From the IMG/VR virus record IMGVR_UViG_2667527959_000001, positions 1 to 14,502 of that record: a stretch of 14,502 bases of DNA, one strand, 5' to 3'. This document shows, in pieces, positions 8,228 through 14,432 of the stretch (position 1 is its first letter; each line of letters begins with the position of its first letter). A program made the position numbers and the translations under genes. The notes beneath the pieces are model-generated. The model searched no databases and had not been told where the DNA came from. It saw only the letters and a list, made by a program, of their open reading frames with translations. The stretch comes from a virus. Lineage: Duplodnaviria > Heunggongvirae > Uroviricota > Caudoviricetes.

Positions 8228-9292
8228 ATGTCTCTTAACTGGATGCGCCATTTTGAGCTGCAACTGTTGGACCAGAACGGGCAGGGCGTTTCCCTGTCTG
8301 ACTTTAAGGTCACGTTCCAGATCGAGTGGGCAGACACACGCTGGCCGCGCGTGGCGAACGTGAAAATTTACAACCTTTCGACCGATACCACGAACAAGAT
8401 ACTTGGGCAGGAGTTTGCCAAAATTCGCATCATTGCCGGGTATGACGGTATAGCGCCGGATGTTGATGCGAGCCAGGTTGGTGTGTCCCGGGAGATTTCA
8501 CCAGACCAGATAGGGCAGGTGAACGGTCAGAACTACGGCCTGATTTTTGACGGTGATATTCGCTTCACCGTCACCGGGAAGGACAACATTACGGATTCCT
8601 GGGTGCTGATTCAGGCCATCAGTAACCACGAAGCGTTCCTCTACGCGACTACCATCACCACGCTTGCCGCTGGTTATACCGTTGCGGACCTGCACCGGGC
8701 GACTATGCAGGATTTCAACGCGTTCGGCGTGACGCAGGGCATTACCGGTGACTTTCCTGATACCGTGTTTCCTCGTGGCCGTGCGATTTATTCATCCACC
8801 CGTAACGTGATGGATAATATTGCTGCGCAGTGCAAAGCGACATGGCAACTGGTGGATGGTCAGGTCCAGATGGTGCCGGAGGATAAATATATTCACGAAG
8901 CCATTGTGTTGAATGCTGATACTGGCCTGATCGGTATGCCGCAACAGACTATGGGCGGCGGCGTAAACGTGCGGTGCCTGATAAACCCCAACATTCGCAT
9001 CAATGGTCTTATCCAGCTCGATCAGGCTTCGGTGTACCGCGCCACGCTCGGCAATAGCGAAATAGCACAGTCGCCCGGGCGTATCACCGAAACAGAAGAG
9101 AACGGCAACCGTGTGCTGACCGGCACGACGTCACAGGCTGCCAGCATTGCGACGGATGGCGTTTATATCGTCAAAGCTATCGACTATACTGGCGACACAA
9201 GAGGTCAGGCGTGGTACATGGATTTGATGTGTTTTGCGCGTGGCAGTCGTGATTTAGTTAATGCTGGTGCTATGCAAAAAACAAACTACTGA
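8228..9292 (+). CDS. Probable baseplate hub protein (gpD/gp27-like, tentative)
   Basis: 354 aa, preceded by AGGAG (8216-8220). Sits between TMP-proximal genes and the spike. The N-terminal F-x-L-x-L-x-x-x-x-G pattern is reminiscent of gpD-type tail proteins; from memory only. Confidence 0.5.
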   Translation: MSLNWMRHFELQLLDQNGQGVSLSDFKVTFQIEWADTRWPRVANVKIYNLSTDTTNKILGQEFAKIRIIAGYDGIAPDVDASQVGVSREISPDQIGQVNGQNYGLIFDGDIRFTVTGKDNITDSWVLIQAISNHEAFLYATTITTLAAGYTVADLHRATMQDFNAFGVTQGITGDFPDTVFPRGRAIYSSTRNVMDNIAAQCKATWQLVDGQVQMVPEDKYIHEAIVLNADTGLIGMPQQTMGGGVNVRCLINPNIRINGLIQLDQASVYRATLGNSEIAQSPGRITETEENGNRVLTGTTSQAASIATDGVYIVKAIDYTGDTRGQAWYMDLMCFARGSRDLVNAGAMQKTNY

Positions 9293-9302
9293 GGTACGGG
9301 AC

Positions 9303-9641
9303 GTGAAACTAGTAATTTTTACCATTGCAGCATTATTTTCTTTCCAGGCTATTGCTGATTCTCAGTGTGGTGATTTCAACATCCATTGGGCTGATGATGG
9401 TTTCGCTCGCGTAAACGGAGCTAAACCTGAATCGCAAAAAGTGACATTTCTTAAAAATGACGGTGATTATAACAACGTCAAAATTGAATGGCGCTTAGCG
9501 ACCAATCAACCAGGGCGATGGGTAGGAATGGAGTTTATTGGCCGTAATGGTAAAGCAATCCTGAATGCTCAGTGGCTGCAAGCAAATATGGATGCACCAC
9601 GTCAGTATGCAACTTATGACTGTGTAAAAATAAAAGGATAA
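9303..9641 (+). CDS. Small secreted protein of unknown function (cassette gene 1): cleavable signal peptide, ~94-aa mature Cys-containing protein
   Basis: GTG at 9303 is preceded by GAGGT (9291-9295) with 7-nt spacing. The N-terminus MKLVIFTIAALFSFQAIA / DSQC is a textbook Sec signal with an A-x-A cleavage site. The mature part has Cys near both ends. Local GC is about 40% versus about 52-55% in flanks (hand counts). The track's ATG 9261 start would overlap the hub gene and put 14 polar residues before the hydrophobic core. Confidence 0.7.
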   Translation: MKLVIFTIAALFSFQAIADSQCGDFNIHWADDGFARVNGAKPESQKVTFLKNDGDYNNVKIEWRLATNQPGRWVGMEFIGRNGKAILNAQWLQANMDAPRQYATYDCVKIKG

Positions 9642-9646
9642 AATTA

Positions 9647-9967
9647 ATGAAAGGATTTGTATCTCTTCTTTTTCTGCTATCCACCTCCGTTTGCGCTGGA
9701 ACGTTAAGTGATTTTTTTGTAAAACATCCAGATTTGGATAATAACCTTGCTATACACACCGCGATTTCTAAAGCTTCTGGCATGGAGGCTGCTGGATTTG
9801 CACGCAGAGAGGGTGGCAGCGAAAAAGAGCTGATGAGTAGTAAAGGTGATCAATTCGCAGTGCTCGGGTTTCGTCGAGTGAAAATGTATTGTAGCTATCC
9901 TGAATCAGCCCAAATGACTGGTCTAAGCGCTGAAGATTGTAAGCTTGTGCTTAGTAAGAACCTATAG
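9647..9967 (+). CDS. Small secreted protein of unknown function (cassette gene 2): signal peptide, ~89-aa mature protein
   Basis: ATG at 9647 is preceded by AAAGGA (9633-9638). N-terminus MKGFVSLLFLLSTSVCA / GTLSD: hydrophobic core with V-C-A cleavage site, non-canonical for a lipobox. Two Cys in the mature part. Low GC, about 38-40%. Followed 21 nt later by an intrinsic terminator. Confidence 0.7.
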   Translation: MKGFVSLLFLLSTSVCAGTLSDFFVKHPDLDNNLAIHTAISKASGMEAAGFARREGGSEKELMSSKGDQFAVLGFRRVKMYCSYPESAQMTGLSAEDCKLVLSKNL

Positions 9968-9988
9968 TTTCATTTCAAGTATGAATTT

Positions 9989-10014
9989 AACCCGCCACCG
10001 AGCGGGTTTTTTTA
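9989..10014 (+). terminator. Rho-independent terminator closing the cassette: stem ACCCGC / GCGGGT, 6-nt loop, then T7
   Basis: Sequence AACCCGCCACCGAGCGGGTTTTTTT read directly. GC-rich 5-6 bp stem plus a 7-T run, lying between cassette gene 2 and the spike gene start at 10025. Confidence 0.8.
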
Positions 10015-10024
10015 TGGGGTTTTT

Positions 10025-10765
10025 ATGCCAATTCCAACTCAATCACAGATCGGCGGTGAGCAGCAGACCGCGCAGGCCATTGCCGATTCGGTGTCTACCC
10101 AGATGCGCGTAGCGATGCCCGGCATCATTCAGTCGTTCGATCCTGAGACTGTTACCTGCACAGTAGAGGTGGCGCTACGCGGTATTGTTGGCGATGGATC
10201 CACCGAATTAAAACCGCTGGTGGATGTGCCGGTCATCTTCCCGCGCGGCGGCGGTTGCACGCTGACCTTTCCGGTAAAAGAAGGCGACGAGTGCCTCCTG
10301 ATTTTTGCTGACCGTTGCATCGATTTTTGGTGGCAGAGCGGCGGCGTTCAGGAGACCGTCGACCCGCGCCAGCATGACTTGTCTGATGCGTTCGCCATCG
10401 TTGGCCCGCAGTCGCAAGCACAGAAAATCAGCGGTATCAGTACCAGCGCCGCGCAGCTGCGAACCGATGATGGTGCGGCGTTCGTAGAAGTCGCCGCAGG
10501 ACATAACATCACCATTAAAACACCGGGCCAGCTTACAGCTACGGCTGAAGGTGGAACGACAATCACATCCCCGACTATCACGCTGAACGGCAACGTAACG
10601 ATTAACGGTAACCTGTCTCAGGGAATGGGAGAAAGCGGCGGTACTGCGACGATGCTTGGGCCGGTGACGGTAACGAATGACGTAACAGCTTCTGGTATCA
10701 GTGTCGCCACGCATAAACATGGCGGAGTACAGACTGGCGGGGGAACTACCGGAGGGCCGCAATAA
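10025..10765 (+). CDS. Baseplate central spike protein (gpV / Mu gp45-like)
   Basis: 246 aa. C-terminal half is Gly/Thr-rich with repeated beta-strand-like segments (ITIKTPGQLTATAEGGTTITSPTITLNGNVTINGNL) and a near-terminal H-K-H motif (10712-10720), as in the metal-binding tips of spike beta-helices. Located immediately upstream of the small baseplate protein and J-like gene. Confidence 0.7.
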   Translation: MPIPTQSQIGGEQQTAQAIADSVSTQMRVAMPGIIQSFDPETVTCTVEVALRGIVGDGSTELKPLVDVPVIFPRGGGCTLTFPVKEGDECLLIFADRCIDFWWQSGGVQETVDPRQHDLSDAFAIVGPQSQAQKISGISTSAAQLRTDDGAAFVEVAAGHNITIKTPGQLTATAEGGTTITSPTITLNGNVTINGNLSQGMGESGGTATMLGPVTVTNDVTASGISVATHKHGGVQTGGGTTGGPQ

Positions 10766-12995: not shown

Positions 12996-13999
12996 TGGCA
13001 ATAAACAACTTTAAACCTTTCGCGCTTGATCCGAACGCTAACGTCACCTCACAAGCTGACTGGGAAGCACTTCCGGCTCTGCTTTCAGGGTTTACGGCAG
13101 GTAAAGCATCCAGCGCACAGGTCAACAAAGCTATTCGGCAAGCCAGCTTTATCGCGGCAGCGTTGGCGCAGTATACCGCAAACAAAAGTGGGCTGGATGT
13201 GCTTGATGATGGAGACCTGAACAGGTTTATATCCAAAATGGGGACCGCTTTCGGGAAAGATTTCCAGGCGCTTGATGCCACGCTGACGGCATTGGCAAGG
13301 CTCGCAACTGGTGCAAATAAACTCCCGTATTTCACTGGAACTGATACAGCTGCGCTGACTAATTTAACTTCTGTTGGTCGCGACATTATTGGGAAAAATA
13401 CTATTGCTGACATTCTCACATACCTTGGATTAACAGGCGCTTTGATTGGTGATGAATGTAACATTGCTGGATTTGACAGTAGTAACGTCAATGCCCCGTA
13501 TATGCGATTCTCCAGAACAAATACAGTAGTTCCTCTGGCAACAAAAGACTATGCGCAACCAAAAGACCAGACACTGACAGATTTAAGCGGTAAGGATAAG
13601 GCAGCACTAAGAACTTATCTTGAACTGAAAAGTGCGGCGCAAAGGGATGTTGGCTCAGGGGCAAATCAGATTCCGGATATGAATAACTTCACATCCAGCC
13701 TGACCACCCCTGGCTGGCAAAAATTACCGTCAGGTCTGATTATTCAGTGGGGGACAGCCAATCCATCATCAACTGGAGAGGTCTTTATTACGTTTCCTGT
13801 CGCGTTCTCTGCATACCCGATGTATGTGGGATTTGGTCCTCAGCAGGTATCGCTTCCTAACGTAGTTCAGTCGCCAGTAATTTCAGCGCCAACGATAACT
13901 AATTTAGGATGCGGCGTCCGAAATCTGATGATTCCAACAGCGGGCGGAGTACCAGTAGCCAGCATGAGTTCATTTTTCTGGATTGCGGTAGGGAAATAA
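12995..13999 (+). CDS. Side tail fibre protein (receptor-binding), start at ATG 12995
   Basis: Contains TLTALARLATGANKLPYFTGTDTAALTNLTSVGRDIIGKNTIADILTYLGL. This closely matches the conserved segment I recall in P2 gpH and other side tail fibres (...LAGLATAADRFPYFTG...LTKVGRDIL...YLGL). The C-terminal ~190 aa are lower in GC (about 40-45%). ATG 12995 overlaps the upstream stop; the track's ATG 12977 would overlap further. Confidence 0.8.
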   Translation: MAINNFKPFALDPNANVTSQADWEALPALLSGFTAGKASSAQVNKAIRQASFIAAALAQYTANKSGLDVLDDGDLNRFISKMGTAFGKDFQALDATLTALARLATGANKLPYFTGTDTAALTNLTSVGRDIIGKNTIADILTYLGLTGALIGDECNIAGFDSSNVNAPYMRFSRTNTVVPLATKDYAQPKDQTLTDLSGKDKAALRTYLELKSAAQRDVGSGANQIPDMNNFTSSLTTPGWQKLPSGLIIQWGTANPSSTGEVFITFPVAFSAYPMYVGFGPQQVSLPNVVQSPVISAPTITNLGCGVRNLMIPTAGGVPVASMSSFFWIAVGK

Positions 14000-14000
14000 T

Positions 14001-14432
14001 ATGTACAAATACAGTGCTAAAAAAAATGCGTTTTATCTGGCTGGTAATGAGGCCGTATACCGCGATTCCGGCACATGGCCTGATGATGCAAAAGATATTG
14101 AAACCCGACGTGCCGAGTCGTTTATGGCGACACCTCCGCAGGGTAAGCGACGTATTGCAGGTGCAGACGGAATGCCTGCGTGGGCAGATATTCCTTCACC
14201 CACGCATGAAGAACTTATTGAAATTTCTGAGTCAAAAAGACAGCTATTAATTAATCAGGCCAACGAATACATGAACAGTAAACAATGGCCCGGTAAAGCC
14301 GCTATTGGTCGTCTGAAAGGCGAGGAACTGGCGCAATATAATTCGTGGCTGGATTATCTGGACGCACTGGAGCTGGTCGATACTTCCAGTGCACCAGATA
14401 TTGAATGGCCGGAAGAACCAGACACAATGTAA
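14001..14432 (+). CDS. Tail fibre assembly protein (Tfa family chaperone)
   Basis: 143 aa immediately after the fibre gene. The C-terminal ...LELVDTSSAPDIEWPEEP is very similar to the C-terminal motif I recall for lambda/e14-type Tfa proteins (...VDTSTAPDIEWP...). Confidence 0.8.
   Translation: MYKYSAKKNAFYLAGNEAVYRDSGTWPDDAKDIETRRAESFMATPPQGKRRIAGADGMPAWADIPSPTHEELIEISESKRQLLINQANEYMNSKQWPGKAAIGRLKGEELAQYNSWLDYLDALELVDTSSAPDIEWPEEPDTM

What the first reader, a model, noticed from the sequence alone, without database searches (positions are those of the whole stretch)
9303..10014. Low-GC two-gene cassette encoding two small secreted proteins, inserted between baseplate hub and spike genes
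Two adjacent ORFs (112 and 106 aa precursors) each have an N-terminal Sec-type signal peptide with an A-x-A-type cleavage site, their own Shine-Dalgarno, and two Cys in the mature part. GC is about 40% against about 52-55% in the flanking tail genes (hand counts on 60-nt blocks), and the pair is closed by a strong intrinsic terminator. Structural baseplate proteins are assembled in the cytoplasm and do not carry signal peptides, so these are cargo, not virion parts. I recognise no family for either protein. Speculative roles: periplasmic superinfection exclusion (by analogy with T4 Sp, a small periplasmic inhibitor of the incoming spike lysozyme), a periplasmic effector/immunity pair, or a lysogenic-conversion factor. 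Gene 1 looks beta-rich, gene 2 alpha-helical.
Basis: partly seen in the sequence, partly recalled or inferred. Interest (0 to 1): 0.85.

Follow-up and report, generated by a model that had tools for sequence, protein, structure and literature searches.

The report
Exported-protein genes in phage baseplate operon
Two small AT-rich genes for exported proteins sit between the baseplate hub and spike genes of an enterobacterial prophage. The first fills a slot that holds an exported protein in almost every relative, and the second is one of dozens of interchangeable cargo genes, so this looks like an envelope-level phage-exclusion locus next to an accessory-gene hotspot rather than virion parts.

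Summary
Gene 1 (9303-9641, 112 aa) and gene 2 (9647-9967, 106 aa) have GC 0.41 and 0.43, against 0.53-0.57 in the flanks. Both have Sec-type leaders and two conserved Cys in the mature part. An intrinsic terminator lies at 9989-10013, between the baseplate hub and spike genes.

The two genes are not one cassette. I surveyed 89 hub-spike junctions.
- **Slot 1 (gene 1, PHROG 3443).** This family follows the hub within -4 to +12 nt of its stop in most loci and is present in 82 of 89. The other 7 carry an unrelated lipoprotein there, so slot 1 always encodes an exported protein. Gene 1 alleles are saturated at synonymous sites while the flanks have dS 0.02-0.27.
- **Slot 2 (gene 2, PHROG 13007).** Gene 2 fills this slot in 13 of 89 loci. 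Elsewhere it holds DUF4236, Phd/Doc, EACC1, HEPN-like and about 30 other ORF clusters.
- **Terminator.** It is conserved before the spike gene in 86 of 89 loci, with compensatory stem changes.

AlphaFold2 gives an 8-stranded beta-barrel for gene 1 and an all-helical protein for gene 2. Neither has a specific structural match.

Best reading (inferred, about 0.4): gene 1 is a periplasmic exclusion or self-protection factor acting on tail-tip penetration, and gene 2 is independent cargo.

The parts
8228..9292 (+). Baseplate hub gene, the left boundary of the junction
   Evidence: phrog_196 baseplate hub, E 1.5e-83; Pfam E217_GP41 only sub-threshold (E 7.7e-06, 25.7 bits against a 27-bit cut-off). 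Conserved at 75-99% identity in the 80 IMG/VR loci.
9162..9190 (+). Candidate sigma-70 promoter (TTTATA-17-TATACT) inside the 3' end of the hub gene. This is an unverified lead for prophage-state expression of the slot genes.
   Evidence: It matches 9 of 12 positions, which is no better than chance for the region. However, the -10 codon pair TAT-ACT is kept in 76 of 78 loci while neighbouring synonymous sites vary, and ACT is only 19% of Thr codons. The samples are not independent.
9291..9294 (+). Shine-Dalgarno GAGG for gene 1, 8 nt before the GTG
   Evidence: Read from the sequence.
9303..9641 (+). Gene 1: 112-aa precursor of a small periplasmic beta-barrel protein (PHROG 3443). Slot 1.
   Evidence: Translation. 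phrog_3443, E 3.5e-44. 112 homologue clusters. Present in 82 of 89 junctions. AlphaFold2 pLDDT 89, 8 strands.
9303..9356 (+). Predicted Sec signal peptide of gene 1 (cleavage AIA|DS is inferred)
   Evidence: Heuristic: h-region at residues 3-18, KD 2.24, n-region charge +1. 99 of 99 homologues are positive.
9357..9638 (+). Mature gene 1 protein (94 aa), with an invariant Cys4/Cys89 pair, a variable N-terminal hairpin region and a conserved C-terminal two-thirds
   Evidence: Alignment A1 invariant columns. dN/dS by segment.
9634..9638 (+). Shine-Dalgarno AAGGA for gene 2, lying inside the end of gene 1
   Evidence: Read from the sequence.
9647..9967 (+). Gene 2: 106-aa precursor of a small secreted all-helical protein (PHROG 13007). 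This is the slot 2 cargo in this window.
   Evidence: Translation. phrog_13007, E 1.7e-18. 8 homologue clusters. Present in 13 of 89 junctions. AlphaFold2 pLDDT 93.
9647..9697 (+). Predicted Sec signal peptide of gene 2 (cleavage VCA|G is inferred). The Cys at residue 16 is not conserved and there is no lipobox.
9989..10013 (+). Intrinsic terminator (stem AACCCGC/GCGGGTT, then T7), immediately upstream of the spike RBS
   Evidence: Scan. A hairpin plus T-run is kept in 86 of 89 loci, with compensatory stems CCCGC/GCGGG, CCAGC/GCTGG, GCCGC/GCGGC, CCCAC/GTGGG and CCTCGC/GCGAGG.
10025..10765 (+). Baseplate spike gene (gpV-like, with Apex motif), the right boundary of the junction
   Evidence: Pfam spike N-terminal domain, E 9e-42, and Apex, E 3.5e-08.

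Best explanation
**Shown.** The hub-spike junction of this SEN34/Brunovirus-type myovirus tail module contains two separate accessory slots, followed by a conserved intrinsic terminator.
- Slot 1 starts within a few nucleotides of the hub stop codon and always encodes an exported envelope protein. Usually this is the gene 1 family, a roughly 94-aa disulfide-bonded periplasmic beta-barrel. Sometimes the same domain is tethered to a lipoprotein, and sometimes an unrelated lipoprotein takes its place.
- Gene 1 alleles are ancient and are swapped by recombination between nearly identical tail modules. The N-terminal hairpin region diversifies and the C-terminal two-thirds is under purifying selection.
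- Slot 2 is a hypervariable cargo site. In this window it holds gene 2, a secreted 89-aa helical protein.

**Inferred.** Gene 1 is exported by Sec, oxidised by DsbA, and acts in the periplasm against tail-tip-mediated envelope penetration by phages of this tail type. This could be superinfection or kin exclusion in the lysogen. It could also be protection of the late-infected cell, in the manner of T4 Sp, T5 Llp, Cor or HK97 gp15. The molecular target is unknown. Candidates are the SLT domain of the tape-measure protein, the spike or hub, or a host envelope factor.

Gene 2 is an independent envelope-located accessory factor, not a partner of gene 1.
For: **Architecture**
- 89 junctions were surveyed. 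The gap is 421-3406 bp and is never empty.
- The gene 1 domain is present in 82 of 89 loci. The other 7 have lipoproteins with lipoboxes ISGC, LTSC, LTGC, LSSC or LSGC.
- Fusion forms occur, such as P0122, which is also placed directly after the hub.
- The distance from the hub stop to the gene 1 start is -4 to +12 nt in most loci.

**Export**
- Leaders are present in 99 of 99 gene 1 homologues and 8 of 8 gene 2 homologues.
- The Cys pairs are invariant.

**Moron-like unit**
- GC is low here and in the homologues.
- In a distant branch the homologue sits between plug and hub. It is again AT-rich and again followed by its own terminator.
- The family has chromosomal, non-prophage homologues, as HK97 gp15 does with YebO (PMC3594210).

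**Arms-race signature**
- Gene 1 dS is saturated, while hub and spike dS is 0.02-0.27 in the same locus pairs.
- There are at least 8 N-terminal allele classes among 51 loci whose hubs are 94% or more identical.

**Precedent**
- Morons in tail operons that encode envelope proteins and block entry of the same tail type (PMC3594210).

**Gene 2 is independent**
- About 40 ORF clusters occupy slot 2, including Phd/Doc, DUF4236, EACC1 and HEPN-like.
- Slot 2 is empty in L070.
Against: - No functional test was possible.
- There is no sequence or fold similarity to any known exclusion protein or lysozyme/transglycosylase inhibitor.
- Gene 1 alleles do not co-vary with tape-measure or spike types, so a lock-and-key interaction with those proteins is not indicated.
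- Tight coupling to the hub gene and the lack of a convincing own promoter suggest late, lytic expression. That fits classical prophage-expressed exclusion less well.
- A calycin/avidin-like barrel is also a typical small-ligand binder.
Confidence: 0.4

Rival explanations
1. Lysogenic-conversion or fitness factor unrelated to phage entry. Gene 1 would be a periplasmic ligand-binding barrel (calycin/avidin-like) that sequesters or shuttles a small molecule. Gene 2 would be another host-benefit factor.
- There is weak sequence similarity to avidin strands beta6-beta7.
- Chromosomal homologues lie next to LysR regulators, outside prophages.
Against: - Pfam Avidin is not hit by any of 58 members.
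- Profile-profile probability is only 49.5% over 28 columns.
- The residue equivalent to avidin's biotin-contacting W97 (from memory, not tool-checked) varies within the family (W, L, M or A).
- A generic host-benefit gene would not be expected to stay glued to the tail-tip genes across genera, or to be replaced in place by other exported proteins.
Confidence: 0.2
2. Lytic-cycle helper. The protein would be made with the tail proteins late in infection and exported. There it would protect the still-maturing cell from lysis-from-without by secondary adsorption, or mask receptors or debris so that progeny are not wasted.
For: - Translational or operon coupling to the hub gene (-4 to +12 nt).
- No convincing independent promoter.
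- The tape-measure protein carries an SLT/transglycosylase domain that a periplasmic inhibitor could neutralise (Pfam SLT in relatives).
- From my own knowledge: T4 Sp acts during lytic infection.
Against: - The conserved terminator and AT-rich composition fit a prophage-expressed moron.
- The codon-level conservation of a -10-like TATACT hints at an embedded promoter.
- The timing of expression is untested.
Confidence: 0.2
3. Gene 1 is a structural or assembly component of the baseplate, and its hydrophobic N-terminus is a membrane-insertion element rather than a cleaved leader.
For: Near-universal presence beside the hub, tight coupling to the hub gene, and association with this baseplate module even in marine relatives.
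Against: - Leaders vary freely in sequence, with A-x-A-type sites before a conserved mature N-terminus.
- An invariant disulfide-type Cys pair.
- Unrelated lipoproteins replace it in nearly identical tail modules.
- The position differs between lineages.
- Alleles are swapped independently of the hub and spike.
- Non-phage chromosomal homologues exist.
Confidence: 0.05
4. Gene 1 and gene 2 form a periplasmic effector/immunity or toxin/antidote pair.
For: They are adjacent, co-oriented and 5 nt apart, and both are exported. In the close E. coli cluster, gene 2 is always linked to one gene 1 allele.
Against: - Gene 1 occurs without gene 2 in 69 of the 82 loci that have it, and next to more than 30 other cargo types.
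- In L070 gene 1 stands alone.
- In Serratia, Rahnella and locus L082, gene 2 sits beside other gene 1 alleles.
Confidence: 0.03

Closest known systems
HK97 gp15 moron (superinfection exclusion; Cumby et al. 2012, summarised in PMC3594210)
   Same: A small envelope-targeted protein encoded by an AT-deviant unit inside the tail operon, next to tail-tip or tape-measure genes, with its own terminator. It has bacterial chromosomal homologues (YebO there; LysR-adjacent homologues here). Its exclusion activity depends on the tail of the incoming phage.
   Different: [quoted passage not shown] Gene 1 and gene 2 are predicted to be cleaved, soluble periplasmic proteins. There is no sequence relationship. 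An own promoter and prophage expression are shown for gp15 but not here.
T4 Spackle (Sp), periplasmic inhibitor of the gp5 tail lysozyme (from my own knowledge)
   Same: A small Sec-exported periplasmic protein with a disulfide, encoded by the phage, that would meet the incoming tail tip. The tape-measure protein here carries an SLT domain as a possible target.
T5 Llp and lambdoid Cor (outer-membrane lipoproteins that block FhuA; from my own knowledge and PMC3594210)
   Same: Exported exclusion proteins encoded beside tail or receptor-binding genes. The alternative occupants of slot 1 (7 of 89 loci, plus about 11 fusions) are lipoproteins.
   Different: The window's two proteins have no lipobox. 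There is no homology. Gene 1 alleles are not tied to particular fibre lengths or spike types.
Avidin/streptavidin and other calycin-type 8-stranded barrels
   Different: Pfam Avidin is not hit. Profile-profile probability is 49.5%. The residues at avidin's biotin-contact positions are not conserved. Gene 1 is about 30 residues shorter.
Accessory or defence-gene hotspots in prophage late operons (for example the P2 old/tin/fun(Z) sites, and lambda lom/bor; from my own knowledge)
   Same: A fixed junction flanked by conserved genes that carries alternative AT-rich cargo, including TA modules and conflict-system proteins.
   Different: The site (hub-spike junction of SEN34-type tails), the paired 'constant exported slot plus variable slot' layout, and the conserved terminator have not, to my knowledge, been described.

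Membership tests
Moron (Juhala/Hendrix definition; PMC3594210) | Extra DNA between genes that are adjacent in related phages | tested here: met
   Gene 2: slot 2 is empty in L070 (a 421-bp gap holding gene 1 plus the terminator) and carries other cargo in 76 of 89 loci. Gene 1: in the L096/L098 lineage the hub abuts the spike, and the homologue sits between plug and hub.
Moron (Juhala/Hendrix definition; PMC3594210) | [quoted passage not shown] | tested here: met
   GC 0.407 and 0.430 (GC3 0.31 and 0.35) against 0.53-0.57 (GC3 about 0.6). The homologues are also lower.
Moron (Juhala/Hendrix definition; PMC3594210) | Own terminator | tested here: met
   Terminator at 9989-10013. Conserved with compensatory changes in 86 of 89 loci. 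Also present after the homologue in L096 and L098.
Moron (Juhala/Hendrix definition; PMC3594210) | Own promoter, with expression from the repressed prophage | tested here: inconclusive
   Only a 9-of-12 promoter-like site inside the hub gene. The codon-level conservation of TATACT is suggestive. Expression cannot be tested here.
Sec/SPase I secreted protein | A positive n-region, a hydrophobic h-region of about 10-16 residues, and small residues at -3 and -1 | tested here: met
   My heuristic is positive for both proteins and for 99 of 99 and 8 of 8 homologues. SignalP was not available and export was not tested.
Bacterial lipoprotein (SPase II) | Lipobox [LVI][ASTVI][GAS]C at the end of the leader | tested here: not met
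   Gene 1 has AIA|DSQC. Gene 2 has TSVC, with V at -1, and that Cys is not conserved in homologues. The alternative slot 1 occupants do have lipoboxes.
Avidin/streptavidin family (PF01382) | Match to the family profile | tested here: not met
   None of 58 members hit Pfam Avidin, even at E up to 10. hhalign against a 22-sequence avidin profile gives probability 49.5% over 28 columns.
Avidin/streptavidin family (PF01382) | 8-stranded up-and-down beta-barrel | tested here: met
Avidin/streptavidin family (PF01382) | Conserved biotin-contact residues (N12, S16, Y33, W70, W97, N118 of avidin; residue list from my own knowledge) | tested here: not met
   Only the W70 equivalent (W45) is nearly invariant. 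The W97 equivalent (W73) is W, L, M or A across the family. The Y33 position aligns to F. Only the beta5-beta7 part of this alignment comes from hhalign; the N-terminal correspondences (N12, S16, Y33) are aligned by eye. No structural superposition was available.
T4 Spackle-like periplasmic inhibitor of tail lysozyme | Sequence or fold similarity to Sp | tested here: not met
T4 Spackle-like periplasmic inhibitor of tail lysozyme | Binds and inhibits the muralytic domain of the incoming tail | not testable with these tools
   Needs co-folding or biochemistry with the SLT domain of the tape-measure protein (window 5313-7316).
MliC/PliC lysozyme inhibitors | Match to the family by sequence or structure | tested here: not met
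Two-gene effector/immunity or toxin/antitoxin pair | Obligate co-occurrence of the two genes | tested here: not met
   Gene 1 is in 82 of 89 loci and gene 2 in 13 of 89. Gene 1 has more than 30 alternative neighbours.
Known anti-phage defence systems (PADLOC-DB) | Match to a defence-protein model | tested here: not met
   No hit for gene 1 or gene 2.

The most novel reading that the evidence does not exclude
The baseplate operon of this widespread enterobacterial phage lineage keeps a dedicated 'exported-protein slot'. Its product is a new periplasmic beta-barrel family with anciently diverged, recombining alleles. It would intercept the tail tip of incoming phages of the same tail type, whether the hub, the spike or the tape-measure SLT domain. 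That would make it a kin-exclusion system whose specificity evolves through the variable N-terminal hairpin. The unrelated lipoproteins in the same slot would be analogous replacements. This would be a new protein class and a new target for superinfection exclusion in Gram-negative myoviruses.
Probability: 0.3. Interest if true: 0.7.

Novelty: new variant of a known kind. Interest (0 to 1): 0.5.

Why it matters
If the exclusion reading holds, this locus would add a new family of periplasmic exclusion proteins that is easy to recognise. It would also add a predictable genomic address, directly after the hub gene of SEN34/Brunovirus-type tails in E. coli, Salmonella, Klebsiella, Serratia, Yersinia and Citrobacter prophages. 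That matters for predicting cross-resistance among temperate phages and phage-therapy candidates that share this tail.

The function does not need to be settled for the adjacent slot 2 to be useful. It is a compact hotspot bounded by conserved sequence, with the 3' part of gene 1 on one side and the terminator and spike start on the other. It already holds Phd/Doc, EACC1, DUF4236 and HEPN-like genes, plus many unknowns. It can be mined for new defence or conversion genes in the way the P2 and P4 hotspots have been.

Gene 2 and gene 1 both give confident AlphaFold2 models with no informative structural neighbour, so they are candidate new folds or families for structural work.

Tried and rejected
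- **Pfam, NCBIfam, PADLOC.** No family was found for gene 1 or gene 2.
- **Rfam on 8800-10400.** Only sub-threshold hits, all caused by the terminator hairpin.
- **Foldseek against BFVD.** The best E-value is 0.29.
- **AFDB50.** The library was unavailable.
- **Avidin lead.** I followed this in four ways: a PDB profile search (E 0.006 for one chain, about 1 for the rest), hhalign against 2 sequences, hhalign against 22 avidin-family sequences (49.5%), and a Pfam scan of 58 members. It is rejected as family membership and kept only as fold-class resemblance.
- **Large multi-repeat 'hits' in the 1.84-billion-protein profile search.** These are MucBP, Flg_new and SH3 repeat proteins, so they are compositional artefacts.
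- **Co-variation of gene 1 with tape-measure, Dit, plug, hub, spike, W and J proteins.** The correlations only reflect overall phylogeny and adjacency, and no specific partner stands out. Within the close cluster the alleles are independent of tape-measure and spike type.
- **Effector/immunity reading.** Rejected on co-occurrence.
- **Structural-protein reading.** Rejected on replacement by lipoproteins and on the change of position between lineages.
- **Literature searches** for this locus or family found nothing specific.
Full report
**Context**

The window is the late structural operon of an enterobacterial temperate myovirus. The gene order is:
- major capsid, neck, sheath (DUF3383), tube and tail assembly chaperone;
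- a 667-aa tape-measure protein with a C-terminal transglycosylase region;
- a Dit-like protein, the plug (Pam3_gp18) and the hub (phrog_196; a sub-threshold Pfam E217_GP41 match);
- two small ORFs;
- the spike (N-terminal domain plus Apex), the sheath initiator, baseplate J, DUF2612 and the fibre.

The same DNA, at 99.6-99.9% identity, lies in E. coli prophages. One of these is a remnant at the lambda attachment site between ybhC and bioA.

**Checking the observation**

- **Coordinates.** Gene 1 is GTG 9303..9641 (112 aa). Gene 2 is ATG 9647..9967 (106 aa). Each has a Shine-Dalgarno 8 nt upstream.
- **Composition.** GC falls to 0.407 and 0.430 (GC3 0.31 and 0.35), against 0.53-0.57 (GC3 about 0.6) in the hub, spike and other tail genes.
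- **Leaders.** Both proteins start with MK, a hydrophobic run and an A-x-A-type site. A simple n/h/c heuristic is positive for both, for 99 of 99 full-length gene 1 homologues and for 8 of 8 gene 2 homologues. It finds no comparable leader in the 14 structural proteins of the window; the closest partial hit is Dit.
- **Lipobox.** Neither protein has one. The Cys inside the gene 2 leader is not conserved.
- **Cysteines.** Each mature protein has two invariant Cys.
- **Terminator.** An intrinsic terminator lies at 9989-10013.
- **Structure.** AlphaFold2 with family alignments gives an 8-stranded all-beta protein for gene 1 (pLDDT 89) and an all-helical protein for gene 2 (pLDDT 93).
- **Selection.** Purifying selection on the plus-strand frame confirms real genes. 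The gene 1 C-terminal part has dN 0.10-0.15 with saturated dS.
- **RNA.** Rfam finds no RNA family in the region.

**The two genes are not one cassette**

Both proteins belong to PHROG families of unknown function, 3443 and 13007.

Gene 1 has 112 homologue clusters, all in Enterobacterales. A profile search of 1.84 billion representative proteins finds only 71 clusters. Gene 2 has 8 clusters.

In annotated E. coli genomes and phages, a gene 1 homologue always follows the hub while the next gene differs. The phages include SEN34, Mulock, Klebsiella prophages and vB_EcoM-683R1.

I then collected 80 more loci from IMG/VR using a hub profile and analysed 89 hub-spike junctions with scripts.

*Slot 1.*
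- The gap between hub and spike is 421-3406 bp and is never empty.
- The gene 1 domain is present in 82 of 89 loci. In most it starts -4 to +12 nt from the hub stop codon.
- In about 11 of these it is the C-terminal domain of a longer lipoprotein. One example is P0122 (lipobox LSGC), which is also encoded directly after the hub.
- The other 7 loci carry, in the same position, a 240-379-aa lipoprotein with an unrelated C-terminal domain. One of them (L045) appears frameshifted: no intact lipoprotein ORF was called, and its assignment rests on a gap length matching L050. Some of these lipoproteins share their N-terminal domain with the fusion proteins (blastp 1e-9).
- Slot 1 therefore always encodes an exported envelope protein.

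*Slot 2.*
- It lies between slot 1 and the terminator and holds about 40 ORF clusters (a greedy ORF call that includes some probably spurious short ORFs).
- These include DUF4236 on the minus strand (16 loci), the gene 2 family (13 loci), a HEPN-like protein with partners (11), EACC1 (7), a membrane-anchored MuF-C-like protein (7), Phd/Doc (7) and an HExxH protein.
- It is empty in L070.
- Gene 2 homologues in Serratia and Rahnella (55-75% identity) occupy the same slot, next to different gene 1 alleles.

**The terminator belongs to the junction**

A GC hairpin followed by T6-8 lies directly upstream of the spike ribosome-binding site in 86 of 89 loci, and the other 3 have imperfect hairpins. 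Stem changes are compensatory: CCCGC/GCGGG, CCAGC/GCTGG, GCCGC/GCGGC, CCCAC/GTGGG and CCTCGC/GCGAGG. The loops vary.

The terminator is therefore a conserved part of the junction and does not belong to this particular cargo. Late transcription has to read through it. I infer that it stops transcripts that are not antiterminated, as in classical morons.

**Evolutionary behaviour of gene 1**

I compared the window with loci whose hub proteins are 96-97% identical.
- Gene 1 synonymous sites are saturated (dS about 0.9 to undefined). The adjacent hub and spike segments have dS 0.02-0.27.
- The leader is almost free to vary.
- The first 26 or so mature residues (strands beta1-beta2) have dN 0.15-0.5.
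- The C-terminal 68 residues have dN 0.10-0.15.
- Among 51 loci with hubs 94% or more identical there are at least 8 N-terminal allele classes, plus fusion and lipoprotein alternatives. These are not tied to tape-measure or spike type.
- Distance correlations with seven tail proteins show only general phylogeny and linkage.

**More distant relatives**

In a branch with 40%-identical hubs, which includes TARA marine contigs, the gene 1 homologue sits between plug and hub. It is again AT-rich (0.40-0.44 against 0.54-0.61) and again followed by its own hairpin-plus-T terminator. In that branch the hub abuts the spike.

Two further homologues are chromosomal, next to LysR regulators, with no phage genes nearby.

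The unit therefore behaves as a mobile moron-like element that has a strong affinity for the tail-tip region.

**What the proteins resemble**

*Gene 1.*
- BFVD gives nothing.
- There is a local similarity to avidin strands beta6-beta7: FIGRNGKAILNAQWL in gene 1 against FIDRNGKEVLKTMWL in avidin. It produced a PDB profile hit at E 0.006 and hhalign probabilities of 45-68%.
- With a 22-sequence avidin/streptavidin profile the probability is 49.5% over 28 columns.
- Pfam Avidin is not hit by any of 58 members.
- The equivalent of the biotin-contacting W97 varies within the family.
- I therefore treat gene 1 as an avidin/calycin-like fold and not as an avidin.

**Mechanism**

*Shown:* exported proteins, the two-slot architecture, the conserved terminator, and ancient recombining alleles under purifying selection with a variable hairpin.

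*Inferred:* the slot 1 product works in the periplasm against envelope penetration by tails of this type.

The reasoning has four parts.
1. The slot stays beside the hub, spike and tape-measure genes across genera.
2. It is refilled by non-homologous exported proteins when gene 1 is absent.
3. It shows an allelic pattern typical of conflict loci.
4. There are precedents: HK97 gp15 is a tail-operon moron whose exclusion activity depends on the incoming tail and which has chromosomal homologues (PMC3594210). From my own knowledge, T4 Sp, T5 Llp and Cor are further examples.

Three points count against a simple prophage-expressed exclusion factor.
- Gene 1 is tightly coupled to the hub gene.
- I found no convincing own promoter. 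There is only a 9-of-12 site inside the hub gene. Its -10 codon pair TAT-ACT is kept in 76 of 78 loci even though ACT is a minority Thr codon. The samples are not independent.
- Gene 1 alleles do not co-vary with tape-measure or spike types.

A lytic-phase protective role and a ligand-binding conversion factor therefore remain serious rivals.

Gene 2 is best seen as independent secreted cargo of unknown function.

**Verdict**

'Cargo, not virion parts' and 'hotspot' are right. 'One cassette' and 'effector/immunity pair' are not.
- This is a new variant of a known kind, namely tail-operon morons and accessory hotspots that encode envelope proteins. Both protein families have no characterised member.
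- Interest is moderate (0.5). The architecture is clear and widely distributed, and the functional hypothesis is directly testable, but no function has been shown.

Noticed in passing
window 9984-10024, and the 48 nt upstream of the spike ATG in L001-L095: The intrinsic terminator just before the spike RBS is conserved across the whole lineage, with compensatory stem changes and varied loops. This puts a terminator inside the late operon, between the hub and spike genes, in every relative. Read-through or antitermination must therefore be built into late expression.
   Followed up: yes
window 9185-9190 (inside the hub gene): The -10-like TATACT is kept as codons TAT-ACT in 76 of 78 relatives while neighbouring synonymous sites vary. 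It may be a promoter embedded in the hub 3' end that drives the slot genes.
   Followed up: partly
L007:2355-3470, L050, L077, L078, L092, L095 (slot 1): A family of 240-379-aa lipoproteins replaces gene 1 directly after the hub. It has a conserved C-terminal domain (FVTRYP...YIDFEHAARLA...GYVEMVT) and no Pfam or PADLOC match. The N-terminal domain in L007 and L095 is shared with lipoproteins that carry the gene 1 domain (P0122, P0139).
   Followed up: partly
Slot 2 of L002-L095 (between the gene 1 homologue and the terminator): The cargo includes Phd/Doc, DUF4236 (minus strand), EACC1 (minus strand), a HEPN-like protein with 263-273-aa partners, an HExxH protein, a membrane-anchored protein with a MuF/SPP1-gp7-like Cys-rich C-terminus, and an IS (ISL3) insertion in L006. 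This is a defence and accessory hotspot worth mining.
   Followed up: partly
L096:4001-4330; L098:371-709; L099:234-572: In marine (TARA) and other distant relatives, the gene 1 homologue lies between plug and hub rather than between hub and spike. It is again AT-rich and has its own terminator.
   Followed up: partly
L097:4001-4339; L100:4001-4369: These are chromosomal homologues of gene 1 outside prophages, next to LysR-type regulators (a subfamily with the motif VRTS.SQIRI.G.YDC). The host organisms were not identified.
   Followed up: no
window 5313-7316: The tape-measure protein carries a C-terminal transglycosylase/endolysin-like region (residues about 476-655 hit phrog_873 and phrog_7182; relatives are annotated as SLT). 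It is a plausible target for a periplasmic inhibitor.
   Followed up: no
window 3095-4255: The sheath protein is 386 aa, against 496 aa in the near-identical E. coli strain 81 prophage. Its best Pfam stretch (residues 91-384) aligns to DUF3383 positions 195-493, with a second shorter stretch whose coordinates were not shown. About 100 profile positions therefore appear to be missing, suggesting a sheath variant that lacks an internal domain.
   Followed up: no
window 5135-5313: [quoted passage not shown] It may be the usual chaperone frameshift product region.
   Followed up: no
window 13200-14432: GC drops again (0.42-0.49) over the C-terminal part of the fibre gene and the tail-fibre assembly gene. 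This is the usual mosaic host-range module.
   Followed up: no
L001:4467-4691: In E. coli strain 81 the prophage is a remnant. The lambda-like early genes (int, xis, kil, cIII) are joined directly to a truncated head-tail adaptor gene, so the head genes present in the window are deleted there.
   Followed up: no
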